Positions 1 to 56,069 of a DNA stretch of 64,000 nucleotides are shown here, piece by piece. The position numbers were made by a program, and so were the translations under genes. The stretch lies in assembly GCF_055900595.2 (NCBI RefSeq), contig NZ_CM148325.1; one strand, given 5' to 3'. The notes under the pieces are model-generated. The model had not been told where the DNA came from and ran no database searches. It saw only the letters and a program-made list of their open reading frames with translations. Every line of letters starts with the position of its first letter. The first letter of the stretch is position 1.

Positions 1-675
1 GGAACCGTCATGCTGCTTCGTCTCATATTTCACGAGATAACTGGCTCTGTTCCGGGCTTTCTGCAGCGCTTCCACATCACCACGCTTGATCCAGAGAACA
101 GCGGCTTCACCCGGCTTTTTTTCTGAAGCCTTCCTGGTATCAGAACATCCACCCGACAAAGGCGTGTCATCGGAAGAAGGGCGAGCATCAGACGATGCTG
201 GTTTACGGGAAGGCGTCCACCTGGAAAAATGGACCAGGCCATCGCCTTGCCAGGCCTCAAGATGCAGGGCGCTGCACCATGCCTCCAGGATCATCGTCGC
301 CAGCGAAGATGGTTCGCTGAAATCCCCTGGCGAGCACCAGGTATCTTTGTTGAGCAGCAATATCACGTGATAATGTTTCCTGCCTTTTTCCTTGCCAAAC
401 TCCCGACACCAGAAATAACGCAGAGTGGTTGCACGCACACGCTTGTTGGCACGTCGTTTTTTCCGCTGGTAAGCCTGGATTTTGGCTTTCAGGGATTCGA
501 AAAAACGAGAAATCACCGCTGAATCCGGATCGGGATCCATGATGGTGACAGGCATATACTCAGGGAAACGTAAATCCACCCGGATTAACGAGACGGCACG
601 GTGCTGCGACAGGGCACTGTCGAGAAGGCTGTCAAAACGGGATAACCAGTAAGCATTGTGTATTGGTTGATTCAT
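1..675 (-). CDS. Island protein, YagK/YfjJ-like (inovirus Gp2-like family); partial, start codon at 675, continues beyond window start
   Basis: Reverse-strand reading frame open from ATG at 673-675 to position 1 without stop (about 225 codons, MNQPIHNAYWLSRFDSLLDS...); absent from ORF track presumably because no stop lies in the window. Family assignment from memory of CP4-type island proteins, not verified. Confidence 0.55.
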   Translation of the reverse strand, partial: MNQPIHNAYWLSRFDSLLDSALSQHRAVSLIRVDLRFPEYMPVTIMDPDPDSAVISRFFESLKAKIQAYQRKKRRANKRVRATTLRYFWCREFGKEKGRKHYHVILLLNKDTWCSPGDFSEPSSLATMILEAWCSALHLEAWQGDGLVHFSRWTPSRKPASSDARPSSDDTPLSGGCSDTRKASEKKPGEAAVLWIKRGDVEALQKARNRASYLVKYETKQHDGS

Positions 676-2252
676 GATGAGAGATCTCCGTTGATTTGGA
701 TTGACTTCACATCATTAATCACCGCGGTAAAACTTTACGGCATCATGTCATTAAGCAATGCTACAACTCTCTGATTAAGAGTGATTGAAACGGAACAAAC
801 CATCCCGGAACGAAAAGATAATCCTGCACACAGCAGCAAAACACGCAACAACAGCATGAATGGATTTAAAAACGACATGGACGACGAGAAAAGCCTGAAG
901 GGAAAAGGATCCACAGAACATTCGAACAAAACACCAGAAACGCAACCAGAACGCTTCCTGGCAATGCAAATCAACAACAACGCCAAAACCTACAGCTTAA
1001 TCACACAACTCAATCACGAATGCGAATGACACGTTTAAAACCTGTTTACAGATAACGCCGTAACACGATCATCCCCATCACCATCAGAATCGATTTTCTC
1101 ATCCCGAAAATGTTACGTTTCACTACGCACCATAAAAACGGTTAACCATCGATAACGTAAACCTTATCTGAATCAAAAACACCAAAACCGTTCATCACAC
1201 TTTCGCAATGCAAGAAGAAACCTCATGACAAAAAGAATGACCTTACACGGAAAAGAAAACGTCAGGAATCGTTAATGCCTCAATCTGATTGTTATCAAAA
1301 CATCCAGAAAGTCGTTTAACAGAATCGTCGTAAGCACATCGAAAAGAACGTCAGATCACCTCAGGAAAGTTCGGGTTGATTTAGCGTAAAGATACTTTTC
1401 TCAGCTTAACGTCGAAACACAAACCAAAAACCACAAACAACCAAAGCTCAGGAAAGGTTAAACGTCACATCAGTAAAATCGAATAGCAGATTGATTGCTT
1501 AAACAGGAAGGATTGTTTTACAGCAGCATTAAACTGATTTAGTTAACGTAAAATCAGAACTGACAGGTTTACTAACTTGGATGTGTATCAGTTCAAAAAT
1601 GTGTACAGCAATGCGTAATGAAACACATTTAAAGGAGATTAATGGGAAAGTGTGTAAATGCGTAAACAGGCACTAATGAATCACTGGAGGAATACATACA
1701 AAACGACTTAATGAAAACATAAAAGGACCTAATGGAAAAGGTGTATATAATACCATATCCGACATTCTCAACATCTTAAGACATCCATGCAGACTGAATG
1801 TTGGTTTCAGTTTTTCACGGTAAGCATGAATCTTTTCTGTTCAAAAGCAGAGCAGATTTACTCTGGAATTATTTTTCTTACTCCGTATTCTGTACAGCAA
1901 AAACTTGTGCTAACTTTACAGCAAACCATCATAATCAGCGTCTGTAGTCCCATCGCTTTACCCCATGAAAGTGAATCCATATGATGTGAGAGAGATAAGT
2001 CATCGTATCCGGTAAACACTGCTTACTATAACATAAGATCATTCAGTCAGTTTTATCTCTGAACTGACGATTATGGCATGCTCATTTATATGGCTCACAG
2101 AGGAGTGTTATTATCCGTAAGCTTTAATCATCAAATCACATGACCATACCAAACTGGCGCTATATCAGCTCATTTGACGCTCATTCCCTTTAGATTTCTT
2201 TATGTGTTTTTTGTTGATAATTAAAATGTAATATAAATTTAATATTTTCAAA

Positions 2253-3476
2253 TCATAAACACCATTTAAAACCATCATCCTGAACATCATACAACAATAT
2301 ATTTTTACTAAAGCATGAATTGTATACTTCTATTAATTCAGGAAAATTATCAGGATTCACCTTTAAATTCAACTGAATGTTACACTTAATTTCACTCAGC
2401 AGTTCTTCATGCGTGGATTTTATTATCCCTTTATCATAATCTATAAATACACACATGTTTTTCATGAATTCAAACCCTTTTCCTGTATACAGTTTGATGA
2501 ATGCCACAAGAGCAAACATTTCAAGATGCAGCCATAATGCCACGTGAGTTTTTCGCAAAGTATAAAAAATTGAATTCGCCACTTTTTTACTTATTGCTCT
2601 TTTGTACTGTGAGTGCGCCAGATTCAGTAGTGGCAATTCTCTCTCGATAAATGAAAGTGAAAAAGACGGGTAAATTGATGTCGGAAATATTTCAGGTCTT
2701 ATGATATTTTCGATTTCCACCATAAATCTATCCATAGAACGAAAATCATTTTCTTTTTTTATTCTGGTATAGAGACCGCCTTTATTCCTTACTGCGACTT
2801 TTTTTCGTGCTATCCCCCCCAACATTTCCTCTAATTGTTTATTTATCTTCGTATCATTAAATACAACCATTCTTCTTATCATCCTGGGAAGGATGATAAT
2901 ATCAGAGCTTGAATCACTTGAACGGCAATTATTATTGATCCATGCAACTTCAAGTTGAAGTATCGGAACATTAAATTCTCTGGGGTTAATAACTCTCTGA
3001 TATTGTTTTTTGTATGCGTTTTCATTAAGATATTCTCTGCTGTAGAGAAACTTATAGCAATATAATCTGACAATATCCTTTATGTAAGATTTAAATGAGT
3101 CACCTGTAACAGATATATTTTTTCTTCTCAGTAACTCCTGTGTATTGAGCCATTCCCGTGACCGGAGTACTCCATTATGAAGACTTTTTCTTACTTGCTT
3201 TGAATTGCGCAATTGATGTAATATTTTTGCGTCCTCAACAATTCTCTTTCCCGTTTGATTTCTTGCAGCATCTATTACTCTGTCAAATATCTCCCGGTCC
3301 AGACTTTTGTCATATTTACTGATTATACGACAAATATTCCTGACCCGACGGTTCTCTTTATTTCGTTTCCATAACTGATAATGATCATCACATAACCTCA
3401 GGGCATTTGCCTCATCAAATTCTGAAACAGGATTGCTGCATTTTTTATTCCGACAGATACCTTTGTTTTTAGCCAT
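2253..3476 (-). CDS. Hypothetical protein, 407 aa, strongly AT-rich, Lys/Asn/Ile-rich; N-terminal Cys-x4-Cys...Cys-x2-His motif; no family recognised
   Basis: Long uninterrupted ORF in ORF track; spot counts of lines give roughly 22-37% GC versus about 50% in flanking core genes; sits between YfjJ-like and YfjP-like island genes. Confidence 0.75.
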   Translation of the reverse strand: MAKNKGICRNKKCSNPVSEFDEANALRLCDDHYQLWKRNKENRRVRNICRIISKYDKSLDREIFDRVIDAARNQTGKRIVEDAKILHQLRNSKQVRKSLHNGVLRSREWLNTQELLRRKNISVTGDSFKSYIKDIVRLYCYKFLYSREYLNENAYKKQYQRVINPREFNVPILQLEVAWINNNCRSSDSSSDIIILPRMIRRMVVFNDTKINKQLEEMLGGIARKKVAVRNKGGLYTRIKKENDFRSMDRFMVEIENIIRPEIFPTSIYPSFSLSFIERELPLLNLAHSQYKRAISKKVANSIFYTLRKTHVALWLHLEMFALVAFIKLYTGKGFEFMKNMCVFIDYDKGIIKSTHEELLSEIKCNIQLNLKVNPDNFPELIEVYNSCFSKNILLYDVQDDGFKWCL

Positions 3477-3576
3477 ACTCTTCTTCCCGTCAATGGAAAA
3501 ATTTTCACGTCCATATTACCTGACTGAGAGGCCGGATTAATGTGATCCGGTTCAGTGAAATCAACAGGATAACGGT

Positions 3577-4461
3577 ATGTCATTCAGCCATTCTTCCCTC
3601 TCCGCACACGTAAAGTCACATCTGACCTTTCTTCCTGAAGAAATTCGCCAGAAAATCCTTGAACATCTTCGCAGCGTCATTCAGTACGAACCCGTTATTG
3701 GCATTATGGGTAAATCCGGTGCCGGAAAAAGCAGCCTGTGCAATGCCATTTTTCAGTCCCGTGTCTGCGCCACGCATCCGCTGAACGGCTGCACCCGTCA
3801 GGCTCATCGTCTTACCTTTCAGCCCGGTGAACGAAGAATGACGCTGGTCGATCTGCCCGGCACTGGCGAAACACCACAGCATGATCAGGAATACCGGGCA
3901 CTTTACAGTCAGTTACTGCCCGAACTGGATCTGATTATCTGGATCCTGCGGGCTGATGAACGTGCGTATGCTGCCGACATCGCCATGCATCAGTTTTTAC
4001 TGAATGAAGGTGCCGATCCCTCGCGTTTTCTGTTTGTTCTCAGCCATGCCGATCGCATCCACCCGGCTGAAGAATGGAACAACCAGAGCAGCACGCCATC
4101 CCGTCAGCAGGAACTCTCACTGGCGACGGTGACAGCCCGGGTGGCAACCCTGTTCCCTTCATCATTTCCGGTACTCCCCATAGCCGCTCCTGCCGGCTGG
4201 AATCTTCCGGCATTTGTGTCTCTGATGATCCACGCCCTGCCACCACAGGCAACCAGCGCGGTTTATTCGCATATCCGGAATGAAAAGCGCACTGCGCAGG
4301 ATCAGCAACACGCACAGCAGGCTTTTGGTGACGCCATCGGCCAGAGTTTTGACGCTGCCATTGCCCGGTTCAGCTTTCCGGCCTGGATGCTGCAGCTTCT
4401 GCGCAAAGCCCGTGATCGCATTATCCGCCTGCTGATCACACTGTGGGATCGCCTGTTCTGA
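3577..4461 (+). CDS. Island GTPase, YfjP/YkfA/YeeP-like (P-loop GTP-binding protein)
   Basis: 294-aa ORF with Walker A motif GIMGKSGAGKSS; sequence resembles K-12 prophage GTPases YfjP/YkfA. Confidence 0.85.
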   Translation: MSFSHSSLSAHVKSHLTFLPEEIRQKILEHLRSVIQYEPVIGIMGKSGAGKSSLCNAIFQSRVCATHPLNGCTRQAHRLTFQPGERRMTLVDLPGTGETPQHDQEYRALYSQLLPELDLIIWILRADERAYAADIAMHQFLLNEGADPSRFLFVLSHADRIHPAEEWNNQSSTPSRQQELSLATVTARVATLFPSSFPVLPIAAPAGWNLPAFVSLMIHALPPQATSAVYSHIRNEKRTAQDQQHAQQAFGDAIGQSFDAAIARFSFPAWMLQLLRKARDRIIRLLITLWDRLF

Positions 4462-4646
4462 ATGTCCCCGCTTTTTGACCGGCCCCGGCGATAACCAGGA
4501 AACGCATTTCCGGTTGCGTCACCACAATGCTGAAGGGCTTCGGTAAACCCTCATTCATTTCATCCATCAGGCCGCGTCTTCTCCGTGAGACGCGGCTTTT
4601 TCATTGATTACGTCATTCAGTCTTAACCACTGATAAGGAGCAAAGT

Positions 4647-5465
4647 ATGCGATTAGCCAGTCGTTTTGGTTATGCGAACCAGATACGCCGTGACCGTCCG
4701 CTGACCCGTGAAGAGCTGATGCACCATGTGCCCGGGATTTTCGGGGAAGATAAACACACCTCCCGGAGCCGGAACTATACATACATCCCCACCATCACCG
4801 TGCTGGAAAGCCTGCAGCGGGAAGGCTTTCAGCCATTCTTCGCCTGCCAGACCCGCGTACGTGACCCGGGCCGCCGGGGGTATACCAAACACATGCTGCG
4901 TCTGCGCCGTGACGGGGAGATAAACGGACAACATGTCCCTGAAATTATTCTGCTCAACTCTCATGACGGTACCTCCAGCTACCAGATGCTGCCGGGTTAC
5001 TTCAGGTTCGTCTGCCAGAACGGATGCGTCTGCGGTCAGTCTCTGGGGGAAGTGCGTGTTCCGCACCGGGGAAATGTGGTGGACAGAGTCATTGAAGGGG
5101 CTTACGAGGTGGTGGGCGTGTTTGACCGGATAGAGGAGAAGCGTGATGCCATGCAGTCGCTGGTCCTGCCGCCACCGGCACGCCAGGCGCTGGCACAGGC
5201 GGCACTGACTTACCGTTATGGTGACGAACATCAGCCCGTCACCACCGCCGACATTCTGACACCACGACGCCGGGAGGATTACGGTAAGGACCTGTGGAGT
5301 GCTTATCAGACCATCCAGGAGAATATGCTGAAAGGCGGGATTTCCGGTCGCAGTGCAAAAGGAAAACGTATCCATACCCGGGCCATTCACAGCATTGATA
5401 CCGATATAAAACTCAACCGCGCATTGTGGGTGATGGCAGAAACGCTGCTTGAGAGCATGCGCTGA
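4647..5465 (+). CDS. DUF932-family island protein, YfjQ-like
   Basis: 272-aa ORF; position after the GTPase gene and similarity to YfjQ as recalled. Confidence 0.75.
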   Translation: MRLASRFGYANQIRRDRPLTREELMHHVPGIFGEDKHTSRSRNYTYIPTITVLESLQREGFQPFFACQTRVRDPGRRGYTKHMLRLRRDGEINGQHVPEIILLNSHDGTSSYQMLPGYFRFVCQNGCVCGQSLGEVRVPHRGNVVDRVIEGAYEVVGVFDRIEEKRDAMQSLVLPPPARQALAQAALTYRYGDEHQPVTTADILTPRRREDYGKDLWSAYQTIQENMLKGGISGRSAKGKRIHTRAIHSIDTDIKLNRALWVMAETLLESMR

Positions 5466-5546
5466 TGCCGTTTCCCTGAGTGAGGGAATCATTCAGCTTT
5501 CGTTCCTGAAAAACACACATTTATTTGTTATTTAAGGCGTTATCTC

Positions 5547-6026
5547 ATGAAAACCGTTTCTCAGAATACCCCCACAATTTATTCAGCTACAACACCAGAG
5601 AATAATCCGCCTCAGTTGGTTGCCAGCCTCGTCCCTGATGAACAGCGCATCAGCTTCTGGCCGCAGCATTTTGGCCTCATTCCACAGTGGGTGACCCTGG
5701 AGCCCCGTGTCTTCGGCTGGATGGACCGTCTGTGCGAAGACTACTGCGGTGGTATCTGGAATCTGTACACCCTGAACAACGGCGGGGCATTTATGGCCCC
5801 CGAACCGGATGATGATGATGACGAAACATGGGTACTGTTCAATGCCATGAACGGTAACCGCGCTGAAATGAGCCCGGAAGCCGCCGGCATTGCTGCCTGT
5901 CTGATGACGTACAGTCATCACGCCTGCCGTACGGAGTGTTATGCCATGACGGTTCATTATTACCGTCTGCGGGATTACGCCCTGCAGCATCCGGAATGCA
6001 GCGCCATTATGCGCATCATTGACTGA
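5547..6026 (+). CDS. Antirestriction protein, KlcA/ArdB-like (YfjX/YafX family)
   Basis: 159-aa ORF with acidic DDDDDE tract; conserved position preceding RadC-like gene in CP4-type islands. Confidence 0.75.
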   Translation: MKTVSQNTPTIYSATTPENNPPQLVASLVPDEQRISFWPQHFGLIPQWVTLEPRVFGWMDRLCEDYCGGIWNLYTLNNGGAFMAPEPDDDDDETWVLFNAMNGNRAEMSPEAAGIAACLMTYSHHACRTECYAMTVHYYRLRDYALQHPECSAIMRIID

Positions 6027-6041
6027 AAGGGGGCCGGAACA

Positions 6042-6518
6042 ATGCAACAGATTTCCTTTCTGCCCGGAGAAATGACAACCAGAGAGCGCAGCCTCATTCA
6101 GCGGGCCCTGAAAGCCCTGGACCGCCATCTTCATGAACCCGGCGTGGTCTTCACCTCCACGCATGCGGCACGGGAATGGCTGATTCTGAACATGGCGGGA
6201 CTGGAGCGTGAAGAATTCCGGGTGCTGTATCTGAACAACCAGAATCAGCTGATTGCCGGTGAAACCCTCTTCACCGGCACCATCAACCGCACGGAAGTCC
6301 ATCCCCGGGAAGTGATTAAACGCGCCCTGTACCACAATGCCGCTGCCGTGGTGCTGGCACACAATCACCCGTCCGGTGAAGTCACACCCAGTAAGGCAGA
6401 CCGCCTTATTACGGAACGTCTGGTACAGGCGCTGGCCCTGGTGGATATCCGGGTGCCGGACCATCTGATAGTCGGTGGCAGCCAGGTTTTCTCCTTTGCC
6501 GAACATGGTCTGCTTTAA
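6042..6518 (+). CDS. RadC-like JAB/JAMM domain protein (YfjY/YeeS/YkfG family)
   Basis: 158-aa ORF containing JAMM metal-binding motif HNHPSG...D (VVLAHNHPSGEVTPSKADRLITERL). Confidence 0.85.
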   Translation: MQQISFLPGEMTTRERSLIQRALKALDRHLHEPGVVFTSTHAAREWLILNMAGLEREEFRVLYLNNQNQLIAGETLFTGTINRTEVHPREVIKRALYHNAAAVVLAHNHPSGEVTPSKADRLITERLVQALALVDIRVPDHLIVGGSQVFSFAEHGLL

Positions 6519-6580
6519 CCCGTCACAACCACATCACACCTGTTTTCACTTTTATCTTCTGTCTTCAGAGGTATCCCATT

Positions 6581-6802
6581 ATGAAAATCATCACCCGTGG
6601 TGAAGCCATGCGTATTCACCAACAGCATCCTGCATCCCGTCTTTTTCCGTTCTGTACCGGCAAATACCGCTGGCACGGCAGCACTGAAACGTATACCGGT
6701 CGTGAAGTGCAGGATATTCCCGGTGTGCTGGCTGTGTTTGCAGAACGTCGTAAGGACAGTTTTGGCCCGTATGTCCGGCTGATGAGCGTCACCCTGAACT
6801 GA
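6581..6802 (+). CDS. DUF987 protein (YeeT/YpjJ/YkfH family)
   Basis: 73-aa ORF in conserved island position after RadC-like gene. Confidence 0.7.
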   Translation: MKIITRGEAMRIHQQHPASRLFPFCTGKYRWHGSTETYTGREVQDIPGVLAVFAERRKDSFGPYVRLMSVTLN

Positions 6803-6816
6803 GTCAGGGCATTCTG

Positions 6817-7447
6817 ATGAGCAGAATTATCACCATCACAGTGTATACGCTGGATGAACTTTCCTGCCCGGCACGGGAAAAAGCCCGCGACGGGTACCGT
6901 CAGCATCATGCTGACAGCAACTGGTATGAAAACGTGTATGAAGACTTCAGGGAGGTCTGTGGCATTTTCGGAATTGACCTCCGCCAGCGCGTTTTCCGGC
7001 TCAGCAACGGCAGGTTTATGGAGGAGCCGAGCATCTGGTTCAGCGGATTCTGCAGCCAGGGACGGAGCCTGTTTTGAAGGACGCTGGCACTGGCAGTCAG
7101 CAACAACCAGGAGAGTCCGGGAGTATGCCCCGCAGAACCGTGAGCTTCATCGTATCGCGGATGCCCTGCAGGCGGTGCAGAAACGTAACTTCTGGCAACT
7201 GCAGGCTGAAATCCACCACCGGGGACGTTACTGCCATCCGTTATCACTGTTACCCGGAACAGTCCGACTGGTCAGGCTATGACAGCCGATGCGGAAGCCG
7301 CTGTCAGCGAAGCCCTGCGCGACCTGGCCTTCTGGCTGTACCGTCAACTGGAAAACGAGTACGACCAGATGACCTCAGACGCCGCTGTGGATGAGGCCAT
7401 TCTCATCAATGCATACATCTTCACCGAAACCGGTCAGCGCACCGGCT
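6817..7447 (+). pseudogene. Island gene apparently disrupted by frameshifts (about 210 codons spread over three reading frames)
   Basis: Contiguous overlapping ORFs 6817-7077 (frame 1), 6854-7282 (frame 2), 7074-7394 (frame 3) and a frame-1 tail 7279-7447; pattern typical of a frameshifted gene. Identity not recognised. Confidence 0.35.
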
Positions 7448-7498
7448 GACCTGTCATCGTTAAACCATTCTTAACCACTTTTCAGAGAGGATTTTATC

Positions 7499-7867
7499 GT
7501 GTCAGACACACTCTCCGGGATAACTCATCCCGACGACAATCACGACCGCCCCTGGTGGGGGCTTCCCTGCACAGTGAGGCCCTGTTTTGGCGCCCGTCTG
7601 GTGCAGGAGGGTAACCGCCTGCATTACCTTGCCGACCGCGCCGGCATCAGAGGCCGGTTCAGCGATGCGGATGCATACCATCTGGACCAGGCCTTTCCGC
7701 TGCTGATGAAACAACTGGAACTCATGCTCACCAGCGGTGAACTGAATCCCCGCCATCAGCATACCGTCACGCTGTATGCAAAAGGGCTGACCTGCGAAGC
7801 CGACACCCTCGGCAGTTGTGGTTACGTTTATCTGGCTGTTTATCCGACGCCCGAAACGAAAAAGTAA
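7499..7867 (+). CDS. Type IV antitoxin, CbeA/YfjZ/YafW family
   Basis: 122-aa ORF MSDTLSGITHPDDNHDRPWWGLPCTV... closely resembles K-12 CbeA (YeeU)/YfjZ. Confidence 0.85.
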   Translation: MSDTLSGITHPDDNHDRPWWGLPCTVRPCFGARLVQEGNRLHYLADRAGIRGRFSDADAYHLDQAFPLLMKQLELMLTSGELNPRHQHTVTLYAKGLTCEADTLGSCGYVYLAVYPTPETKK

Positions 7868-7957
7868 ACCACCGGAATAACCTTCTGCTCCGGCCAGGTG
7901 TTTTCACCACGCCACTCTCCCCATAATTTAATCTCTCATATCAGGAAAATCTTCAGT

Positions 7958-8368
7958 ATGAAATTATTACCCGACACACATGTACGGGAGGCATCGTGCT
8001 GCCCGTCTCCCGTCACCATCTGGCAGACACTGCTCATCCGTCTGCTGGACCAGCACTATGGCCTCACACTGAATGACACACCGTTCGCTGATGAACGTGT
8101 GATTGAGCAGCATATTGAGGCCGGCATTTCACTGTGCGATGCGGTGAACTTTCTCGTTGAAAAATACGCACTGGTACGTACCGACCAGCCGGGATTCAGC
8201 GCAGGAGCCCCGTCGCAGTTAATCAACAGCATCGATATTCTCCGGGCCCGCCGGGCAACAGGCCTGATGACACGTAATAACTACAGAATGGTAAATAACA
8301 TTACCCTGGGTAGCATCCGGGGGCGAAACGATGAAACTTTCCCTGACGCTGGAAGCCGACAGCATTAA
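7958..8368 (+). CDS. Type IV toxin, CbtA/YpjF/YkfI family (cytoskeleton-inhibiting toxin)
   Basis: ORF from ATG at 7958 (MKLLPD...[60 protein letters not shown]...) matches CbtA-like toxins; immediately downstream of antitoxin. C-terminal extent uncertain. Confidence 0.8.
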
Positions 8369-8753
8369 CGTGCAGGCACTGAACATGGGGCGCATTGTCG
8401 TTGACATTGATGGTGTAAATCTCGCTGAACTGATTAACAAGGTCGCTGAATACGGTTATTCACTCCGCGTGGTGGATGAACGTGACGCTACCGAAACACC
8501 GGCGACTTCTGCCAGCTCTCATCAGTTGCCGGAAGACAATACAGTGATACAGAGCGTGATGCCATTAACCACTGAAACAGCGCTGGATATCCTCATTGCG
8601 TGGCTGCAGGACAATATCGACTGCGGGTCCGGAATTATTTTCGACAACGATGAGGATAAAACGGATTCGGCAGCACTGCTGCCCTGTATTGAACAGGCCA
8701 GGGAGGATATCCGTACCCTGCACCAACTGCAACTTCTGCACCAGAACCGGTGA
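8331..8753 (+). CDS. YeeW-like island protein
   Basis: 140-aa ORF following the toxin gene as in CP4-44/CP4-57 modules; assignment by position and recalled similarity. Confidence 0.55.
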
Positions 8754-8837
8754 ATCTCACTCACCAGACTTCATTCTCCTGACGCCAGCCTGAACAGAGC
8801 TGGCGTTTTCGTTTATAAACAGAAAGGAAACCCCATA

Positions 8838-9623
8838 ATGTCATATATCACAATCCCCCACCCGAACGCGGTCAACGGACATACAGCCGTTATCTGTTCC
8901 ACAAGTATCAGACACATCCTGGCTGTACGAAAGAGTACACTGCTGCAAATCGACACGCTTATCCGGCAACTGACAGAAATCTCAGCACTGACGGAAAGTA
9001 TTGGCGGTAAAGCCGCCCCGGACTGGGCGATGAAACAGAATTTTCGCTGTGGTTGCTGGCTGATGGAGAAACCAGAAACAGCAATGAAAGCCATTACCCG
9101 GAATCTTGACCGCGAAATCTGGCGTAACCTGATGCAGCGTTCCGGGATGCTTTCCTTAATGGATGCACAGGCACGTGATACATGGTACAGGTCACTGGAA
9201 TATGATAATTTTCCGGAAATCAGTGAAGCGAACATTCTGAGCACATTTGAACAACTGCACCAGAATAAGGATGAAGTGTTTGAGCGGGGGGTGATCAACC
9301 TCTTCAAAGGGCTGAGCTGGGATTACAAAACCAACTCACCCTGTAAATTTGGCAGTAAAATTATCGTCAACAATCTGGTGAGGTGGGACCAGTGGGGATT
9401 TCATCTTATCAGTGGAATGCAGGCAGATCGCCTGGCTGACCTGGAAAGAATGTTGCATCTGCTCAGCGGTAAACCGATCCCCGACAACCGGGGAATATCA
9501 CCATTAATCTGGATGACCACATACAGTCCGTTCAGGGTAAAGGACGCTATGAAGATGAGATGTTCATCATTAAATACTTTAAGAAGGGAGCTGCACACAT
9601 CACTTTCAAAAGGCTGGAGCTGA
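8838..9623 (+). CDS. Hypothetical island-terminal protein, 261 aa
   Basis: Uninterrupted ORF with plausible RBS context; last gene before the tRNA-fragment repeat. Family not recognised. Confidence 0.6.
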   Translation: MSYITIPHPNAVNGHTAVICSTSIRHILAVRKSTLLQIDTLIRQLTEISALTESIGGKAAPDWAMKQNFRCGCWLMEKPETAMKAITRNLDREIWRNLMQRSGMLSLMDAQARDTWYRSLEYDNFPEISEANILSTFEQLHQNKDEVFERGVINLFKGLSWDYKTNSPCKFGSKIIVNNLVRWDQWGFHLISGMQADRLADLERMLHLLSGKPIPDNRGISPLIWMTTYSPFRVKDAMKMRCSSLNTLRRELHTSLSKGWS

Positions 9624-9789
9624 TTGACAGAATTAACGATATAATAGCCAGGCACTTTCCTTCTGTGCTCTCAGCCTGACCCCGAGTTTGATTCCCTTTC
9701 GATATCAAAAGGGACTGCGGGTACAAAAGAGGGTACATCTTTCACCAAACCAAACAAAATAAACCAATATCAACATGATAGAAGCATTC

Positions 9790-9811
9790 TTCGATTCCGA
9801 GTCCGGCACCA
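9790..9811 (+). repeat. tRNA-Phe 3'-end fragment (attR-type direct repeat of island integration site)
   Basis: TTCGATTCCGAGTCCGGCACCA matches the 3' end of E. coli tRNA-Phe (TTCGATTCCGAGTCCGGGCACCA) with one G missing; upstream sequence does not continue as tRNA. Confidence 0.7.
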
Positions 9812-9822
9812 AATTCATATAA

Positions 9823-9848
9823 ACGGACCTCCACGGAGGTCCGTTTTT
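9823..9848 (+). terminator. Rho-independent terminator (native pheU terminator)
   Basis: Perfect inverted repeat ACGGACCTCC / GGAGGTCCGT followed by TTTTT. Confidence 0.75.
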
Positions 9849-10442
9849 CGTTTCAGGACGCCATGTGATTTAAGCGTTCTGCCTTCAAATCATTTCTAAC
9901 AATCTCAACCAAATTTTCCCTAATCGCCAGCATGTTACGGGTATACCCCAGCTCTGGGAAATTTATCCCTAAGCTATGAATGACTCTCACGAAATGTCGT
10001 GCGGCTGCGTGATGCAGTTGAAAATCAAATGATGTCATCAAGAGCTTAACGGTATCGTTGCCGATGACATATATAAAGCACAACCTCGGGCAGAACGCCG
10101 ACTGATGAGATTTTCTGAATGAGAACAAAGAGTAATGTCTCAGTTCGTTTGCTCATGCAAAGACTAATAATCCATGAAAATAGTAAGTGCTCTGAGAAAT
10201 TTTCCATGGATTATTTTCTGAACATTTTTCTTTGGCAAAGATGATGAATTTTGATGATAAGGAATATTACTTCTGGTTCTCAGTAAACTCCTTTCGTAAT
10301 ACTATGTAATCAAGAAGTTTATGGCGGGTAAAAATAACGTCTTACATTCACCAACAATATGTAAATAAACCCATCTATAGATGGTAAAAATAGGTCATGG
10401 CAATTATCATTGAACCATTCCCTTTTCGAATGAGTTTCTATT

Positions 10443-11152
10443 ATGCAACAACCTGTAGTTCGCGTTGGCGAATGGCTTGTTACTCCGTCCATAAACCAAA
10501 TTAGCCGCAATGGGCGTCAACTTACCCTTGAGCCGAGATTAATCGATCTTCTGGTTTTCTTTGCTCAACACAGTGGCGAAGTACTTAGCAGGGATGAACT
10601 TATCGATAATGTCTGGAAGAGAAGTATTGTCACCAATCACGTTGTGACGCAGAGTATCTCAGAACTACGTAAGTCATTAAAAGATAATGATGAAGATAGT
10701 CCTGTCTATATCGCTACTGTACCAAAGCGCGGCTATAAATTAATGGTGCCGGTTATCTGGTACAGCGAAGAAGAGGGAGAGGAAATAATGCTATCTTCGC
10801 CTCCCCCTATACCAGAGGCGGTTCCTGACACAGATTCTCCCTCCCAAAGTCTTAACATTCAAAACACCGCAACACCACCTGAACAATCCCCAGTTAAAAG
10901 CAAACGATTCACTACCTTTTGGGTATGGTTTTTTTTCCTGTTGTCGTTAGGTATCTGTGTAGCACTGGTAGCGTTTTCAAGTCTTGATACACGTCTTCCT
11001 ATGAGCAAATCGCGTATTTTGCTCAATCCACGCGATATTGACATTAATATGGTAAATAAAAGTTGTAACAGCTGGAGTTCCCCGTATCAGCTCTCTTACG
11101 CGATAGGCGTGGGTGATTTGGTGGCGACATCACTTAACACCTTCTCCACCTT
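10443..11152 (+). pseudogene. cadC: cadC 5' fragment (DNA-binding domain and transmembrane segment) truncated by IS1 insertion
   Basis: ORF MQQPVVRVGEWLVTPSINQISRNGRQLTLEPRLIDLL... equals CadC N-terminus; reading frame runs into IS1 and ends 6 codons later (VMLPTY-stop at 11174). Confidence 0.9.
11144..11152. repeat. IS1 target-site duplication, left copy (CTCCACCTT)
   Basis: Identical 9-bp sequence immediately flanks both IS1 ends. Confidence 0.85.
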
Positions 11153-11207
11153 GGTGATGCTGCCAACTTACTGATTTAGTGTATGATGGTGTTTTTGAGG
11201 TGCTCCA

Positions 11208-11483
11208 GTGGCTTCTGTTTCTATCAGCTGTCCCTCCTGTTCAGCTACTGACGGGGTGGTGCGTAACGGCAAAAGCACCGCCGGACATCAGCGCTATCTC
11301 TGCTCTCACTGCCGTAAAACATGGCAACTGCAGTTCACTTACACCGCTTCTCAACCCGGTACGCACCAGAAAATCATTGATATGGCCATGAATGGCGTTG
11401 GATGCCGGGCAACTGCCCGCATTATGGGCGTTGGCCTCAACACGATTTTACGTCACTTAAAAAACTCAGGCCGCAGTCGGTAA
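11208..11483 (+). CDS. insA: IS1 InsA (transposition repressor / N-terminal part of InsAB' transposase)
   Basis: 91-aa [94 protein letters not shown]. Confidence 0.95.
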
Positions 11484-11905
11484 CCTCGCGCATACAGCCG
11501 GGCAGTGACGTCATCGTCTGTGCGGAAATGGACGAACAGTGGGGCTATGTCGGGGCTAAATCGCGCCAGCGCTGGCTGTTTTACGCGTATGACAGGCTCC
11601 GGAAGACGGTTGTTGCGCACGTATTCGGTGAACGCACTATGGCGACGCTGGGGCGTCTTATGAGCCTGCTGTCACCCTTTGACGTGGTGATATGGATGAC
11701 GGATGGCTGGCCGCTGTATGAATCCCGCCTGAAGGGAAAGCTGCACGTAATCAGCAAGCGATATACGCAGCGAATTGAGCGGCATAACCTGAATCTGAGG
11801 CAGCACCTGGCACGGCTGGGACGGAAGTCGCTGTCGTTCTCAAAATCGGTGGAGCTGCATGACAAAGTCATCGGGCATTATCTGAACATAAAACACTATC
11901 AATAA
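11402..11905 (+). CDS. insB: IS1 InsB (C-terminal part of InsAB' transposase)
   Basis: 167-aa ORF matching IS1 InsB (…[33 protein letters not shown]…). Confidence 0.95.
11457..11465 (+). promoter_or_regulatory. IS1 programmed -1 ribosomal frameshift site (A6C motif TTAAAAAAC)
   Basis: Sequence TTAAAAAAC at the insA/insB overlap, the known site producing InsAB' transposase. Confidence 0.75.
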
Positions 11906-11920
11906 GTTGGAGTCATTACC

Positions 11921-11929
11921 CTCCACCTT
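11921..11929. repeat. IS1 target-site duplication, right copy (CTCCACCTT)
   Basis: Identical to 11144-11152. Confidence 0.85.
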
Positions 11930-12758
11930 TATGGTGCATGACAAAATCAACTACAACATTGATGAACCGAGCAGTTCCGGTAAAACATTATCTATTGCGT
12001 TTGTTAATCAGCGCCAATACCGTGCTCAACAATGCTTTATGTCGGTAAAATTGGTAGACAATGCAGATGGTTCAACCATGCTGGATAAACGTTATGTCAT
12101 CACTAACGGTAATCAGCTGGCGATTCAAAATGATTTACTGGAGAGTTTATCAAAAGCGTTAAACCAACCGTGGCCACAACGAATGCAGGAGATGCTCCAG
12201 CAAATTTTGCCTCATCGTGGTGCGTTATTAACTAATTTTTATCAGGCACATGATTATTTACTGCATGGCGATGATAAATCATTGAACCGTGCCAGTGAAT
12301 TACTAGGTGAGATTGTTCAATCATCCCCCGAATTTACCTACGCGAGAGCAGAAAAAGCATTAGTTGATATCGTGCGCCATTCTCAACATCCTTTAGATGA
12401 AAAACAATTAGCAGCACTGAATACAGAAATAGATAACATTGTTACACTGCCGGAATTGAACAACCTGTCCATTATATATCAAATAAAAGCGGTCAGTGCT
12501 CTGGTAAAAGGTAAAACAGATGAGTCTTACCAGGCGATAAATACTGGCATTGATCTTGAAATGTCCTGGCTAAATTATGTGTTGCTTGGCAAGGTTTATG
12601 AAATGAAGGGGATGAACCGGGAAGCAGCTGATGCATATCTCACCGCCTTTAATTTACGCCCAGGGGCAAACACCCTTTACTGGATTGAAAATGGTATATT
12701 CCAGACTTCTGTTCCTTATGTTGTACCTTATCTCGACAAATTTCTCGCCTCAGAATAA
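11921..12758 (+). pseudogene. cadC: cadC 3' fragment (periplasmic sensor domain) separated from its 5' part by IS1
   Basis: Frame reading STFMVHDKINYNIDEPSSSGKTLSIAFVNQRQYRAQQCF... to stop at 12758 matches the CadC periplasmic domain. Confidence 0.9.
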
Positions 12759-13122
12759 GTGACTCCCGGGTTGACTCATGCTCGGGAATATTTGTTGTTG
12801 ATTTTTTGTATGTTATTGTTGGTATAATATGTTGCGGCAATTTATTTGCCGCATAATTTTTATCACATAAATTTAACCATGGAATATTCTGCAATCTATT
12901 GTAAACATTGAATGTTTATCTTTTCATGATATCAACTTGCGATCCTGATGTGTTAATAAAAAACCTCAAGTTCTCACTTACAGAAACTTTTGTGTTATTT
13001 CACCTAATCTTTAGGATTAATCTTTTTTTTTGAGTAATCTTGTCGCCAGTTTGGTCTGGTCAGTAAATAGTTACGCATCATGACCCGGACTCCAAATTCA
13101 AAAATGAAATTAGGAGAAGAGC
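12759..13122 (+). promoter_or_regulatory. cadBA promoter region (Pcad; CadC-binding region inferred)
   Basis: AT-rich 364-bp intergenic region upstream of cadB; position-based inference from the known cad operon organisation, individual sites not mapped. Confidence 0.45.
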
Positions 13123-14457
13123 ATGAGTTCTGCCAAGAAGATCGGGCTATTTGCCTGTACCGGTGTTGTTGCCGGTAATATGATGGGGAGCGGCATTGCA
13201 TTATTGCCTGCGAACCTTGCAAGTATCGGTGGTATTGCTATCTGGGGTTGGATTATCTCTATTATTGGTGCAATGTCGTTGGCTTATGTATATGCCCGAC
13301 TGGCAACAAAAAACCCGCAACAAGGTGGCCCAATTGCTTATGCCGGAGAAATTTCTCCTGCATTTGGTTTTCAGACAGGTGTTCTTTATTACCATGCTAA
13401 CTGGATTGGTAACCTGGCGATTGGTATTACCGCTGTATCTTATCTTTCCACCTTCTTCCCTGTATTAAATGATCCTGTTCCGGCGGGTATCGCTTGTATT
13501 GCTATCGTCTGGGTATTTACCTTTGTAAATATGCTCGGCGGTACCTGGGTAAGCCGTTTAACCACTATTGGTCTGGTGCTGGTTCTTATTCCTGTAGTTA
13601 TGACTGCTATTGTTGGCTGGCATTGGTTTGATGCTGCAACTTATGCTGCTAACTGGAATACCGCAGGTACTACTGATGGTCATGCGATCATTAAAAGTAT
13701 TCTGCTCTGCCTGTGGGCCTTCGTGGGTGTTGAATCCGCAGCGGTAAGTACTGGTATGGTTAAAAACCCGAAACGTACCGTTCCGCTGGCAACCATGCTG
13801 GGTACTGGTTTAGCAGGTATTGTTTACATCGCTGCGACTCAGGTGCTTTCCGGTATGTATCCGTCTTCTGTAATGGCAGGCTCCGGTGCTCCGTTTGCAA
13901 TCAGTGCTTCTACTATCCTGGGTAACTGGGCTGCGCCGATGGTTTCTGCATTCACCGCTTTTGCGTGCCTGACTTCTCTGGGCTCCTGGATGATGCTGGT
14001 AGGTCAGGCAGGTGTGCGTGCCGCTAACGACGGTAACTTCCCGAAAGTTTATGGTGAAGTCGACAGCAACGGTATTCCGAAAAAAGGTCTGCTGCTGGCT
14101 GCAGTGAAAATGACTGCCCTGATGATCCTCATCACTCTGATGAACTCTGCCGGTGGTAAAGCATCTGACCTGTTCGGTGAACTGACCGGTATCGCAGTAC
14201 TGCTGACTATGCTGCCGTACTTCTACTCTTGCGTTGACCTGATTCGTTTTGAAGGCGTTAACATCCGCAACTTTGTCAGCCTGATCTGCTCTGTACTGGG
14301 TTGCGTGTTCTGCTTCATCGCGCTAATGGGCGCAAGCTCCTTCGAGCTGGCAGGTACCTTCATCGTCAGCCTGATTATCCTGATGTTCTACGCTCGCAAA
14401 ATGCACGAGCGCCAGAGCCACTCAATGGATAACCACACAGCGTCTAACGCACATTAA
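13123..14457 (+). CDS. cadB: Lysine:cadaverine antiporter
   Basis: 444-aa [40 protein letters not shown]...; APC-family transporter; conserved position. Confidence 0.95.
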   Translation: MSSAKKIGLFACTGVVAGNMMGSGIALLPANLASIGGIAIWGWIISIIGAMSLAYVYARLATKNPQQGGPIAYAGEISPAFGFQTGVLYYHANWIGNLAIGITAVSYLSTFFPVLNDPVPAGIACIAIVWVFTFVNMLGGTWVSRLTTIGLVLVLIPVVMTAIVGWHWFDAATYAANWNTAGTTDGHAIIKSILLCLWAFVGVESAAVSTGMVKNPKRTVPLATMLGTGLAGIVYIAATQVLSGMYPSSVMAGSGAPFAISASTILGNWAAPMVSAFTAFACLTSLGSWMMLVGQAGVRAANDGNFPKVYGEVDSNGIPKKGLLLAAVKMTALMILITLMNSAGGKASDLFGELTGIAVLLTMLPYFYSCVDLIRFEGVNIRNFVSLICSVLGCVFCFIALMGASSFELAGTFIVSLIILMFYARKMHERQSHSMDNHTASNAH

Positions 14458-14536
14458 TTAAAAGTATTTTCCGAGGCTCCTCCTTTCATTTTGTCCCATG
14501 TGTTGGGAGGGGCCTTTTTTACCTGGAGATATGACT

Positions 14537-16684
14537 ATGAACGTTATTGCAATATTGAATCACATGGGGGTTTATTTTAAAGAAGAACCCATCCGTGAAC
14601 TTCATCGCGCGCTTGAACGTCTGAACTTCCAGATTGTTTACCCGAATGACCGTGACGACTTATTAAAACTGATCGAAAACAATGCGCGTCTGTGCGGTGT
14701 TATTTTTGACTGGGATAAATATAATCTCGAGCTGTGCGAAGAAATTAGCAAAATGAACGAGAACCTGCCGTTGTACGCGTTCGCTAATACGTATTCCACT
14801 CTCGATGTCAGCCTGAATGACCTGCGTTTACAGATTAGCTTCTTTGAATATGCGCTGGGTGCTGCTGATGATATTGCTAACAAGATCAAGCAGACCACTG
14901 ACGAATATATCAACACTATTCTGCCTCCGCTGACCAAAGCACTGTTTAAATATGTTCGTGAAGGTAAATATACTTTCTGTACTCCTGGTCACATGGGCGG
15001 TACTGCATTCCAGAAAAGCCCGGTAGGTAGCCTGTTCTATGATTTCTTTGGTCCGAACACCATGAAATCTGATATTTCCATTTCAGTATCTGAACTGGGT
15101 TCTCTGCTGGATCACAGTGGTCCACACAAAGAAGCAGAACAGTATATCGCTCGCGTATTTAACGCAGACCGCAGCTACATGGTGACCAACGGTACTTCCA
15201 CTGCGAACAAAATTGTTGGTATGTACTCTGCTCCGGCAGGCAGCACCATTCTGATTGACCGTAACTGCCACAAATCGCTGACCCACCTGATGATGATGAG
15301 CGATGTTACGCCAATCTATTTCCGCCCGACCCGTAACGCTTACGGTATTCTTGGTGGTATCCCACAGAGTGAATTCCAGCACGCTACCATTGCTAAGCGC
15401 GTAAAAGAAACACCAAACGCGACCTGGCCGGTACATGCCGTAATTACTAACTCTACCTATGATGGCCTGCTGTACAACACCGACTTCATTAAGAAAACGC
15501 TGGATGTGAAATCCATCCACTTTGACTCCGCGTGGGTGCCTTACACCAACTTCTCACCGATTTACGAAGGTAAATGCGGTATGAGCGGTGGCCGTGTAGA
15601 AGGGAAAGTGATTTACGAAACCCAGTCTACTCACAAACTGCTGGCGGCGTTCTCTCAGGCTTCCATGATCCACGTTAAAGGTGATGTAAACGAAGAAACC
15701 TTTAACGAAGCCTACATGATGCACACCACCACTTCTCCGCACTACGGTATCGTGGCGTCCACTGAAACCGCTGCGGCGATGATGAAAGGTAATGCTGGTA
15801 AGCGTCTGATCAACGGTTCCATTGAACGTGCGATCAAGTTCCGTAAAGAGATCAAACGCCTGAGAACGGAATCTGATGGCTGGTTCTTTGATGTATGGCA
15901 GCCGGATCATATCGATACCACTGAATGCTGGCCGCTGCGTTCTGACAGCTCCTGGCACGGCTTCAAGAACATCGACAATGAGCACATGTATCTTGACCCG
16001 ATTAAAGTCACCCTGCTGACTCCGGGGATGGAAAAAGACGGCACCATGAGCGACTTCGGTATTCCGGCCAGCATCGTGGCGAAATACCTCGACGAACATG
16101 GCATCGTTGTTGAGAAAACCGGTCCGTATAACCTGCTGTTCCTGTTCAGCATCGGTATCGATAAGACCAAAGCACTGAGCCTGCTGCGTGCTCTGACTGA
16201 CTTCAAACGTGCGTTCGACCTGAACCTGCGTGTGAAAAACATGCTGCCGTCTCTGTATCGTGAAGATCCTGAATTCTATGAAAACATGCGTATTCAGGAA
16301 CTGGCTCAGAATATCCACAAACTGATTGTTCACCACAATCTGCCGGATCTGATGTATCGCGCATTTGAAGTGCTGCCGACTATGGTAATGACTCCATATG
16401 CTGCGTTCCAGAAAGAGCTGCACGGTATGACCGAAGAAGTTTACCTCGACGAAATGGTAGGTCGTATTAACGCCAATATGATCCTTCCGTATCCGCCGGG
16501 AGTTCCTCTGGTAATGCCGGGTGAAATGATCACCGAAGAAAGCCGTCCGGTGCTGGAGTTCCTGCAGATGCTGTGTGAAATCGGCGCTCACTATCCGGGC
16601 TTTGAAACCGATATTCACGGTGCATACCGTCAGGCTGATGGTCGCTATACCGTTAAGGTATTGAAAGACGAAAGCAAAAAATAA
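14537..16684 (+). CDS. cadA: Inducible lysine decarboxylase
   Basis: 715-aa frame from ATG 14537 (MNVIAILNHMGVYFKEEPIRELHRALERLNFQIVYPNDRDD...) matching CadA; intact. Confidence 0.95.
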   Translation: MNVIAILNHMGVYFKEEPIRELHRALERLNFQIVYPNDRDDLLKLIENNARLCGVIFDWDKYNLELCEEISKMNENLPLYAFANTYSTLDVSLNDLRLQISFFEYALGAADDIANKIKQTTDEYINTILPPLTKALFKYVREGKYTFCTPGHMGGTAFQKSPVGSLFYDFFGPNTMKSDISISVSELGSLLDHSGPHKEAEQYIARVFNADRSYMVTNGTSTANKIVGMYSAPAGSTILIDRNCHKSLTHLMMMSDVTPIYFRPTRNAYGILGGIPQSEFQHATIAKRVKETPNATWPVHAVITNSTYDGLLYNTDFIKKTLDVKSIHFDSAWVPYTNFSPIYEGKCGMSGGRVEGKVIYETQSTHKLLAAFSQASMIHVKGDVNEETFNEAYMMHTTTSPHYGIVASTETAAAMMKGNAGKRLINGSIERAIKFRKEIKRLRTESDGWFFDVWQPDHIDTTECWPLRSDSSWHGFKNIDNEHMYLDPIKVTLLTPGMEKDGTMSDFGIPASIVAKYLDEHGIVVEKTGPYNLLFLFSIGIDKTKALSLLRALTDFKRAFDLNLRVKNMLPSLYREDPEFYENMRIQELAQNIHKLIVHHNLPDLMYRAFEVLPTMVMTPYAAFQKELHGMTEEVYLDEMVGRINANMILPYPPGVPLVMPGEMITEESRPVLEFLQMLCEIGAHYPGFETDIHGAYRQADGRYTVKVLKDESKK

Positions 16685-46717: not shown

Positions 46718-46741
46718 CATCCCCATCATTGAGGAAAACGA

Positions 46742-47758: not shown

Positions 47759-47764
47759 TGTGCT

Positions 47765-47875: not shown

Positions 47876-47883
47876 AGCCAAAC

Positions 47884-48663: not shown

Positions 48664-48683
48664 TAAGCGAGGCATTAATATCT

Positions 48684-53100: not shown

Positions 53101-53109
53101 ATGCAACAC

Positions 53110-53240: not shown

Positions 53241-53276
53241 GCACCGCTCCCCAATATGCGAACCACGAGGCGAAAA

Positions 53277-56068: not shown

Positions 56069-56069
56069 C

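What the first reader, a model, noticed from the sequence alone, without database searches (positions are those of the whole stretch)
8838..9623. Unrecognised 261-aa protein as the last gene before the att remnant
This is a clean ORF with near-core composition at the extreme distal end of the island, just upstream of the tRNA-fragment repeat. Terminal positions of such islands often carry variable cargo. I cannot assign a family from the sequence.
Basis: seen in the sequence. Interest (0 to 1): 0.3.

Follow-up and report, generated by a model that had tools for sequence, protein, structure and literature searches.

The report
Frameshifted DUF4942 (YdiA-like) island backbone pseudogene
The "unrecognised" last gene of this pheU island is a broken (one-base frameshift) copy of DUF4942/YdiA, a very common but still uncharacterised gene of E. 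coli islands and conjugative-plasmid leading regions, so the locus itself is ordinary and already annotated as such.

Summary
The ORF 8838-9623 (+) exists and is the last gene before a tRNA-Phe 3' fragment (9790-9811). It is neither unassignable nor a clean gene. It matches Pfam DUF4942 (PF13708, E 5e-46), but only profile positions 1-130 of 190. One missing base in a G/A run (9490-9496) moves the last 61 codons into another frame, which stays open to the family's usual stop at 9677-9679. Adding one base gives a 280-aa protein that covers the whole domain (E 1e-66). NCBI's PGAP pipeline annotates identical DNA in E. coli genomes as "DUF4942 domain-containing protein, frameshifted".

The gene is island backbone, not variable cargo. 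Related DNA is in 3865 of 5426 complete E. coli genomes (median 2 places per genome). The same gene-att junction is in 882 genomes.

Plasmid relatives (YdiA/YgfB, 35-39% identical) are in 4427 plasmids, 4063 of them conjugative. A 2024 survey ranks them among the top leading-region families, with a median position of first ORF from oriT and no known function.

The AlphaFold2 model is confident but matches no solved fold. In other mobile elements the domain is fused N-terminally to an adenine-methyltransferase core that has no room for a recognition domain of its own. I infer an early establishment or anti-restriction role linked to DNA methylation. This copy is most likely dead. Interest is low.

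The parts
8838..9679 (+). Full extent of the DUF4942 (YdiA/L0010-family) pseudogene: 842 bases, one base short of an 843-base, 280-codon gene
   Evidence: PGAP annotates identical DNA in E. coli EC21Z-147 over this span as 'DUF4942 domain-containing protein, frameshifted'. An intact 843-base allele lies at the same site in F1022. The one-base repair gives PF13708 profile positions 1-189 of 190, E 9.6e-67.
8838..9623 (+).
9490..9496 (+). Frameshift site, GGGGAAT: one base missing relative to intact alleles, which read CGGGAAAAC/T (R-E-N)
   Evidence: DNA alignment with the intact F1022 allele shows a single gap here. Other alleles carry frameshifts at the same run.
9494..9679 (+). Displaced C-terminal coding segment (61 codons plus stop), which holds the family-invariant H254 and N267
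   Evidence: Translates to NITINLDDHIQ...HITFKRLELIDRINDIIARHFPSVLSA*. Invariant columns.
9790..9811 (+). attR remnant: the last 23 nt of tRNA-Phe (pheU) with one G missing. This is the island/core boundary.
   Evidence: Alignment with the K-12 TOP10 pheU locus. Empty-site genomes match only from this base onward. No intact tRNA in the window.
9821..9846 (+). Native pheU terminator hairpin, core DNA just outside the island
8331..8753 (+). Upstream neighbour: 140-aa ORF with a DUF5983_N (YeeW-like) N-terminus. PGAP splits the equivalent DNA into a truncated DUF5983 pseudogene and a DUF957 gene.
7898..8368 (+). CbtA-family type IV toxin gene (YeeV-like)
   Evidence: PF06755, E 2.4e-59
7499..7867 (+). 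CbeA/YeeU-family antitoxin gene
   Evidence: PF06154, E 7.8e-55
6042..6518 (+). RadC-like JAB gene (YeeS-like)
   Evidence: PF04002, E 4.8e-45
5547..6026 (+). Antirestriction protein gene of the KlcA/ArdB type (YfjX-like)
   Evidence: PF03230, E 2.4e-37

Best explanation
Shown:
- It is the conserved terminal gene of the 'leading-region-like' right arm of E. coli tRNA-associated islands: DUF932, KlcA-type antirestriction, RadC-like JAB, DUF987, CbeA/CbtA, DUF5983, DUF957, then DUF4942.
- One base is missing in a G/A run. This replaces the last 61 residues, including the invariant H254 and N267, with 42 unrelated ones.

Inferred:
- This copy is a recently inactivated pseudogene with no function of its own.
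- For the intact family, my best reading (about 0.35 on its own) is an early-acting establishment or anti-restriction factor tied to DNA adenine methylation. The DUF4942 module would be a DNA- or substrate-targeting partner domain for an N6-adenine methyltransferase core that has no recognition domain. In phages and integrative elements the two are one polypeptide. In enterobacterial plasmids and islands the module stands alone. On plasmids it is typically the first gene next to oriT, so it is among the first to enter a recipient.
For: Identity and decay:
- PF13708 match: 157 bits as found, covering profile 1-130 of 190, and 225 bits covering 1-189 of 190 after adding one base.
- The missing C-terminus is in the other frame.
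- There is a single-base gap against the intact allele at the same pheU-cadC site.
- PGAP labels identical DNA 'frameshifted'.
- dN/dS against the intact allele is 0.15 before and 0.21 after the shift, which suggests a recent lesion.

Backbone status:
- DNA relatives are in 3865 of 5426 E. coli genomes, median 2 places per genome.
- The junction with the att site is in 882 genomes.
- The same gene order is described in the Shigella SRL island, orf56 = L0010 (PMC6980539).

Leading-region link:
- tblastn finds relatives in 4427 of 72,556 plasmids, 4063 of them conjugative.
- In an IncI-gamma/K1 plasmid the gene sits between ardA-psiB-ssb and mobC/nikA.
- In an IncL/M plasmid it sits among JAB, antirestriction and ssb genes.
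- Other contexts carry PsiA/ArdA/AcrVA2-like and ArdC_N/SprT genes.
- Samuel and Burstein 2024 (PMC11541004), Supplementary Table 1: family 24, size 2171, FDR p = 0, median position 1 from oriT, strand 1, 'Uncharacterized; DUF4942'.

Methylation link:
- In the 9 fusions scanned against Pfam, DUF4942 lies N-terminal to the methyltransferase domain.
- All 23 fusion proteins examined have intact EPSAGxG and NPPF motifs in the C-terminal part, with only about 60-100 residues after NPPF.
- phrog_6263 'DNA methyltransferase' matches the domain.
- Phage hits are annotated as DNA methyltransferases.
- W95, G151, D201, R204, H254 and N267 are invariant across the query and all 23 fusions; W95, D201, H254 and N267 are also invariant, and G151 and R204 nearly so, across the 97 mostly stand-alone sequences.
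Against: No experiment on any DUF4942 protein was found.

The stand-alone protein has no SAM-binding or NPPF motif.

The small methyltransferase core that is homologous to the fused half is absent from this 64-kb window, from the IncI-gamma leading region and from the IncL/M locus. A partner enzyme in trans is therefore not generally nearby.

Six (near-)invariant residues, four of them polar (D201, R204, H254, N267), look more like an active or ligand-binding site than like a variable recognition domain.

Inactivity of the truncated product is inferred, not measured.
Confidence: 0.8

Rival explanations
1. Family-level rival. DUF4942 is an autonomous effector or enzyme, for example a hydrolase or nuclease that uses D201, H254 and N267. 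It would work independently of methylation. Its fusion to methyltransferases would be the 'polyvalent protein' habit of mobile elements, which string unrelated anti-defence modules together.
For: The polar residues D201, R204, H254 and N267 are invariant or nearly so in stand-alone and fused forms. H254 lies in a beta-strand and N267 in the following helix. I note from general knowledge that this recalls a beta-beta-alpha metal finger. The methyltransferase half of the fusions best matches giant multi-domain phage protein families of 2789-3431 residues. The stand-alone genes usually have no methyltransferase of that type nearby.
Against: No Pfam nuclease or hydrolase family matches, even at E up to 5, across 97 members. 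No structural match to any enzyme was found. Every fusion found is to a methyltransferase, and wherever domain order was checked DUF4942 is N-terminal. That is less varied than expected for free-standing modules.
Confidence: 0.25
2. The 261-aa truncated protein is still made and keeps a function, partial or new.
For: The ORF keeps the family start codon and a ribosome-binding site. It also keeps the helical N-terminal two-thirds with W95 and D201. The frameshifted allele persists in several E. coli lineages, with 23 records at 99% identity or more.
Against: The protein loses three predicted strands and the last helix, with the invariant H254 and N267 and the conserved R259. PGAP calls it a pseudogene. 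Neighbouring genes in the same arm are also broken. Frameshifted 261-aa products are rare next to intact clusters: 4, 21 and 6 member sequences against 5910, 4496, 862 and 618.
Confidence: 0.07
3. The G/A run is a phase-variable or programmed frameshift switch, so the gene is reversibly on and off rather than dead.
For: At least two different alleles carry one-base losses at the same run: the window/P0054 type and the P0088 type, which lost a G from CGGGAAAAC.
Against: The run is short (G3-4, A3-4). Such events are rare among thousands of intact copies. The same frameshift is inherited across 99-100% identical records, as a fixed lesion would be. No slippery-site or stimulatory structure was examined or is evident.
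Confidence: 0.05
4. The protein is itself a DNA or restriction methyltransferase, as some database names say ('restriction methylase', 'methyltransferase domain').
For: Names given by some sources. From memory, the Pfam family once carried a methyltransferase-type name.
Against: No methyltransferase family matches the 280-aa protein at E up to 1. It has no EPSAGxG or NPPF motif, whereas all 23 fusions carry both in a separate C-terminal domain.
Confidence: 0.02
5. One reading: a variable cargo gene at the island tip.
For: It lies at the extreme distal end of the island.
Against: The same gene holds the same terminal position next to the tRNA-Phe att site in 882 genomes. Relatives are in 71% of complete E. 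coli genomes, always in the same conserved module.
Confidence: 0.03

Closest known systems
YdiA / YgfB of IncI, IncK, IncF and IncL/M conjugative plasmids (leading-region gene family 24 of Samuel and Burstein, Nature 2024, PMC11541004)
   Same: Same Pfam domain over the whole length, 35-39% identity. Same size of about 265-285 aa. Same neighbours (antirestriction KlcA/ArdA, RadC-like JAB, DUF905, ssb/psi genes), and the same orientation as those neighbours.
   Different: The plasmid genes are intact and sit next to oriT, with a median position of first ORF. The window copy is chromosomal, sits next to an att site and is frameshifted.
[not shown]
   Same: Same family and same place in the module, after CbtA (L0007), YeeW (L0008) and DUF957 (L0009) (PMC6980539; names). 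The closest intact proteins are 89% identical (P0003) and 94.6% identical (F1022 allele).
   Different: Those copies are intact ORFs. None has a tested function either.
DUF4942-methyltransferase fusion proteins of phages and integrative elements (phrog_6263 'DNA methyltransferase'; for example P0189, P0270, P0276)
   Same: The N-terminal 270 residues are homologous, 31-37% identical, and keep W95, G151, D201, R204, H254 and N267.
   Different: They carry a C-terminal N6-adenine-type catalytic core (EPSAGxG and NPPF) that the window protein and all enterobacterial stand-alone forms lack.
Known antirestriction proteins of leading regions (ArdA, ArdB/KlcA, ArdC)
   Same: Same genomic neighbourhoods and the same early-entry logic.
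   Different: No sequence similarity. Family pI is near neutral (median 7.2), unlike acidic DNA mimics. The published survey found no Foldseek or DIAMOND match to known anti-restriction or anti-CRISPR proteins.

Membership tests
DUF4942 (Pfam PF13708; YdiA/YgfB/L0010) | Score above Pfam's gathering threshold (25 bits) | tested here: met
   157.3 bits, E 4.8e-46, for the ORF as found; 224.8 bits after the one-base repair
DUF4942 (Pfam PF13708; YdiA/YgfB/L0010) | Complete domain in one reading frame | tested here: not met
   The ORF covers profile positions 1-130 of 190 only. The rest is in another frame. The feature is met only after adding one base.
DUF4942 (Pfam PF13708; YdiA/YgfB/L0010) | Family-invariant residues W95, D201, H254, N267 | tested here: not met
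   W95 and D201 are present. H254 and N267 lie beyond the frameshift and are absent from the 261-aa product.
DUF4942 (Pfam PF13708; YdiA/YgfB/L0010) | Context: co-oriented with leading-region-type genes (KlcA/ArdA, RadC-JAB, DUF905/DUF932) | tested here: met
   Window genes at 5547-8753, the PGAP table of the near-identical locus and plasmid contexts
Class I SAM-dependent N6-adenine DNA methyltransferase | SAM-binding motif I (xEPxxGxG) and catalytic motif IV (NPPF/Y) | tested here: not met
   No such motifs and no methyltransferase Pfam hit at E up to 1 in the 280-aa protein. Both motifs are present in all 23 fusion relatives.
DNA-mimic antirestriction proteins (ArdA/Ocr type) | Strongly acidic protein; ArdA Pfam match | tested here: not met
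   pI 8.6 for this protein and a family median of 7.2. No ArdA or Antirestrict hit.
His-Me finger / HNH-type nuclease (considered because of H254...N267 in a strand-helix unit) | Recognisable beta-beta-alpha metal-finger similarity by profile or fold | tested here: inconclusive
   [not shown]
Target-recognition or DNA-binding domain of a methyltransferase | Binds DNA and determines the methylated sequence | not testable with these tools
   The idea rests only on architecture. DUF4942 is N-terminal to a catalytic core with about 60-100 residues after NPPF.

The most novel reading that the evidence does not exclude
The DUF4942/YdiA family, of which this locus is a dead copy, may be an undescribed fold and a new kind of early establishment or anti-defence factor. 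It is typically the first gene next to oriT to enter a recipient. It is functionally coupled (a gene-fusion, 'Rosetta-stone', link) to adenine methyltransferase cores that lack a recognition domain. It would act either by targeting methylation to incoming DNA or by a conserved D/R/H/N site of its own.
Probability: 0.35. Interest if true: 0.55.

Novelty: already known. Interest (0 to 1): 0.15.

Why it matters
For this window it matters little. The gene is a known-family pseudogene that standard annotation already flags. Its presence only confirms that the right arm of the pheU island is a decaying 'leading-region-like' module.

The useful by-product concerns the family:
- It is one of the most abundant uncharacterised genes of conjugative plasmids and E. 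coli islands.
- It is typically the first gene next to oriT.
- It has a confidently predicted fold with no solved relative.
- It has six invariant or near-invariant residues.
- It shows a consistent fusion to adenine methyltransferase cores.

That makes a concrete, testable case for a new establishment or anti-restriction factor. An intact plasmid ydiA is the right object for those tests, not this locus.

Tried and rejected
- Sequence search of solved structures with the protein and with a 97-sequence profile gave only chance hits, E >= 0.25.
- Foldseek against the PDB gave nothing below E 0.35.
- The BFVD viral library returned only family members. The afdb50 library was not available.
- NCBIfam and PADLOC gave no hit for the protein.
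- Pfam at E up to 5 over all 97 members gave only DUF4942, plus 5 weak kleA_kleC hits with a best E of 0.03.
- 'Split methyltransferase' idea, in which the stand-alone DUF4942 pairs with the small methyltransferase core. That core is in at least 5000 plasmids and in IncF follows a DUF3560 gene. It is absent from the window, the IncI-gamma leading region and the IncL/M locus. A general in-trans partnership is therefore not supported.
- DUF4942 against DUF3560 by hhalign gave probability 0.1%, so they are not homologous.
- DNA-mimic idea rejected on charge.
- Literature searches for DUF4942, PF13708, Methyltransf_27, and ydiA with 'leading region' and ardA found no functional study.
- ARAGORN finds no intact tRNA in the window. 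A 25-nt tRNA-Phe pattern with 3 mismatches missed the remnant because of its one-base deletion. Alignment resolved it.

Full report
1. THE OBSERVATION

An ATG-started ORF of 261 aa lies at 8838-9623 on the + strand. An AGGA lies 9 nt upstream of the ATG (read). It is the last coding sequence of the island.

Window 9790-9811 aligns base for base with the last 23 nt of K-12 pheU, apart from one missing G. The native pheU terminator (9821-9846) and then cadC follow. Nothing upstream of 9790 aligns with the empty-site locus. E. coli genomes with an empty site match my junction query only from that base onward. ARAGORN finds no intact tRNA in the window, as expected for the distal end of an island. 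G+C of the gene is 47.4%, against 51.0% for the window.

2. NOT A CLEAN ORF

Pfam assigns the protein to DUF4942 (PF13708) at E 4.8e-46, but the match ends at profile position 130 of 190. The frame that starts at 9494 translates to NITINLDDHIQSVQGKGRYEDEMFIIKYFKKGAAHITFKRLELIDRINDIIARHFPSVLSA* and ends at 9677-9679. Inserting one base in the run GGGGAAT (9490-9496) gives a 280-aa protein that covers profile positions 1-189 of 190 at E 9.6e-67.

An intact 843-base allele lies at the same pheU-cadC position in E. coli F1022. Its protein is 94.6% identical to the repaired window protein. A DNA alignment with it shows exactly one gap at that run. PGAP annotates DNA identical to the window (E. coli EC21Z-147) and near-identical DNA (ACN002, strain 135) as 'DUF4942 domain-containing protein, frameshifted' over the span equivalent to 8838-9679.

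dN/dS against the intact allele is 0.15 upstream and 0.21 downstream of the shift. The lesion therefore looks recent.

The product loses the last three predicted strands and the C-terminal helix. These carry the family-invariant H254 and N267 and the conserved R259. I infer that the copy is non-functional. This is not measured.

3. BACKBONE, NOT CARGO

- DNA similar to 8760-9830 is found in 3865 of 5426 complete E. coli genomes, with a median of 2 and up to 7 places per genome.
- A junction query (gene 3' part, att remnant and downstream DNA) is covered at 80% or more in 882 genomes.
- In the four near-identical or allelic loci whose annotation I inspected, the gene closes the same co-oriented array: GTPase, DUF905, DUF932, antirestriction (KlcA type), RadC-like JAB, DUF987, CbeA/YeeU, CbtA/YeeV, DUF5983, DUF957, DUF4942.
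- The window's own genes fit this order: PF03230 at 5547-6026, PF04002 at 6042-6518, PF06154 at 7499-7867, PF06755 at 7898-8368 and DUF5983_N at 8331-8753.
- The same order was tabulated for the Shigella SRL island, where orf56 = L0010 = DUF4942 (PMC6980539).

4. THE WIDER FAMILY

An exhaustive HMMER search finds 2166 clusters (at 50% identity) with E <= 0.001. Most are stand-alone proteins of about 260-290 aa.

tblastn finds relatives 35-39% identical in 4427 of 72,556 plasmids, 4063 of them conjugative. Contexts inspected:
- In an IncI-gamma/K1 plasmid the gene is the last leading-region gene before mobC, oriT and nikA. It lies downstream of ssb, DUF905, a ParB-like gene, psiB, psiA, ardA, pndC and rpn.
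- In an IncL/M plasmid it lies among JAB, antirestriction and ssb genes.
- Metagenomic and genomic contexts add PsiA/MqsRA/ArdA/AcrVA2-like, ArdC_N/SprT, and KorA-IncC-KorB with a C5 methylase two genes away.

5. STRUCTURE

AlphaFold2 on a 97-sequence alignment gives mean pLDDT 86.4 and pTM 0.76. The model has:
- a disordered first 18 residues or so;
- a 31-residue helix;
- a helical domain running to about residue 159;
- an alpha/beta domain, three strands, two helices, three strands and a helix.

6. LINK TO METHYLATION

I examined 23 longer relatives of 441-578 aa. In the 9 scanned against Pfam, DUF4942 lies N-terminal to a methyltransferase domain, and all 23 carry the motifs EPSAGxG and NPPF in their C-terminal part. 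About 60-100 residues follow NPPF, which leaves no room for a separate recognition domain. They lie in prophage or integrative-element contexts. W95, G151, D201, R204, H254 and N267 are invariant across the query and all 23 fusions. W95, D201, H254 and N267 are also invariant, and G151 and R204 nearly so (96 and 93 of 97), in the 97-sequence alignment of mostly stand-alone forms. The stand-alone protein has no methyltransferase motif, so database names such as 'restriction methylase' are misnomers.

A stand-alone methyltransferase core of about 187 aa is 36-43% identical to the fused half. It occurs in at least 5000 plasmids and in IncF follows a DUF3560 gene. It is absent from this window and from the IncI-gamma and IncL/M loci that carry DUF4942. 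DUF4942 and DUF3560 are unrelated.

7. MECHANISM

Shown: family identity, the frameshift, backbone status, the leading-region association and the fusion pattern.

Inferred, at about 0.35: intact DUF4942 proteins are early establishment or anti-restriction factors whose module targets DNA (or another substrate) for an adenine methyltransferase core. Stand-alone forms would act alone or with another enzyme.

The main rival, at about 0.25, is an autonomous enzyme or effector that uses the conserved D/R/H/N site. The absence of a nearby methyltransferase in many contexts favours it. The lack of any enzyme-like profile or fold match, and the exclusive fusion to methyltransferases, count against it.

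For this locus the rivals are a functional truncated protein (0.07) and a phase-variable or programmed frameshift (0.05). The second was suggested by independent one-base losses at the same run in other alleles. It is countered by their rarity and by their clonal inheritance.

8. VERDICT

The finding is a real ORF, correctly placed. It is a frameshifted pseudogene of a well-catalogued, functionally uncharacterised backbone family, and public genomes already annotate it so.
- Novelty: already known.
- Interest: 0.15.
- What is still open concerns the family (novel fold, first gene next to oriT, methyltransferase fusion), not this copy.

Noticed in passing
window 10443-12758 (insertion at 11153-11920): cadC is split by a 768-bp insertion that carries IS1-type InsA/InsB ORFs (11208-11483 and 11402-11905). 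Against an intact cadC locus the two flanks overlap by 9 bp, which looks like a target duplication. Loss of cadC is, from general knowledge, a typical Shigella/EIEC pathoadaptive lesion.
   Followed up: partly
window about 10009-10168 (+), between the att remnant and cadC: PGAP annotates a short frameshifted tyrosine-integrase fragment here in near-identical genomes. The same fragment is also annotated in K-12 TOP10, whose pheU site is empty. It is therefore an older remnant that does not belong to the present island.
   Followed up: partly
window 6817-8753: The island arm is decaying in several places. An 'antitoxin of toxin-antitoxin stability system' gene is split into ORFs 6817-7077 and 7279-7449. 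PGAP flags the CbtA gene as frameshifted in identical DNA. The DUF5983 gene is truncated, and in this window it reads through into the DUF957 region as one 140-aa ORF (8331-8753).
   Followed up: partly
window 9490-9496 and proteins P0054, P0088: Other DUF4942 alleles carry one-base losses at the same G/A run. P0054 (21 members) has the same out-of-frame tail on a different N-terminus. P0088 (6 members) lost a G from CGGGAAAAC. This is probably a slippage hot spot.
   Followed up: partly
L017 12533-14504 (IncF plasmid pNZRM4165) and at least 5000 plasmids: A roughly 187-aa class I methyltransferase with no room for a recognition domain sits just downstream of a DUF3560 gene in the IncF leading region. 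It is homologous to the methyltransferase half of the DUF4942 fusions. These small cores may pair with interchangeable N-terminal partner modules.
   Followed up: partly
alignment A1 (97 DUF4942 proteins): Five members give weak matches to Pfam kleA_kleC (KorC-regulated proteins of IncP plasmids), best E 0.03. I did not determine where in the proteins these matches lie. One DUF4942 gene (L003) sits right after korA-incC-korB.
   Followed up: no
window 46001-57000: An 11-kb stretch has 58-63% G+C, well above the rest of the window. I did not examine it. Its distance from cadC makes me guess the phn operon, but this is untested.
   Followed up: no
window 1-5500 versus L001: The proximal part of the island is a mosaic relative to the closest E. 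coli genome. Blocks are 87-93% identical and separated by unmatched DNA, whereas 5544-16000 is 96-98% identical.
   Followed up: no
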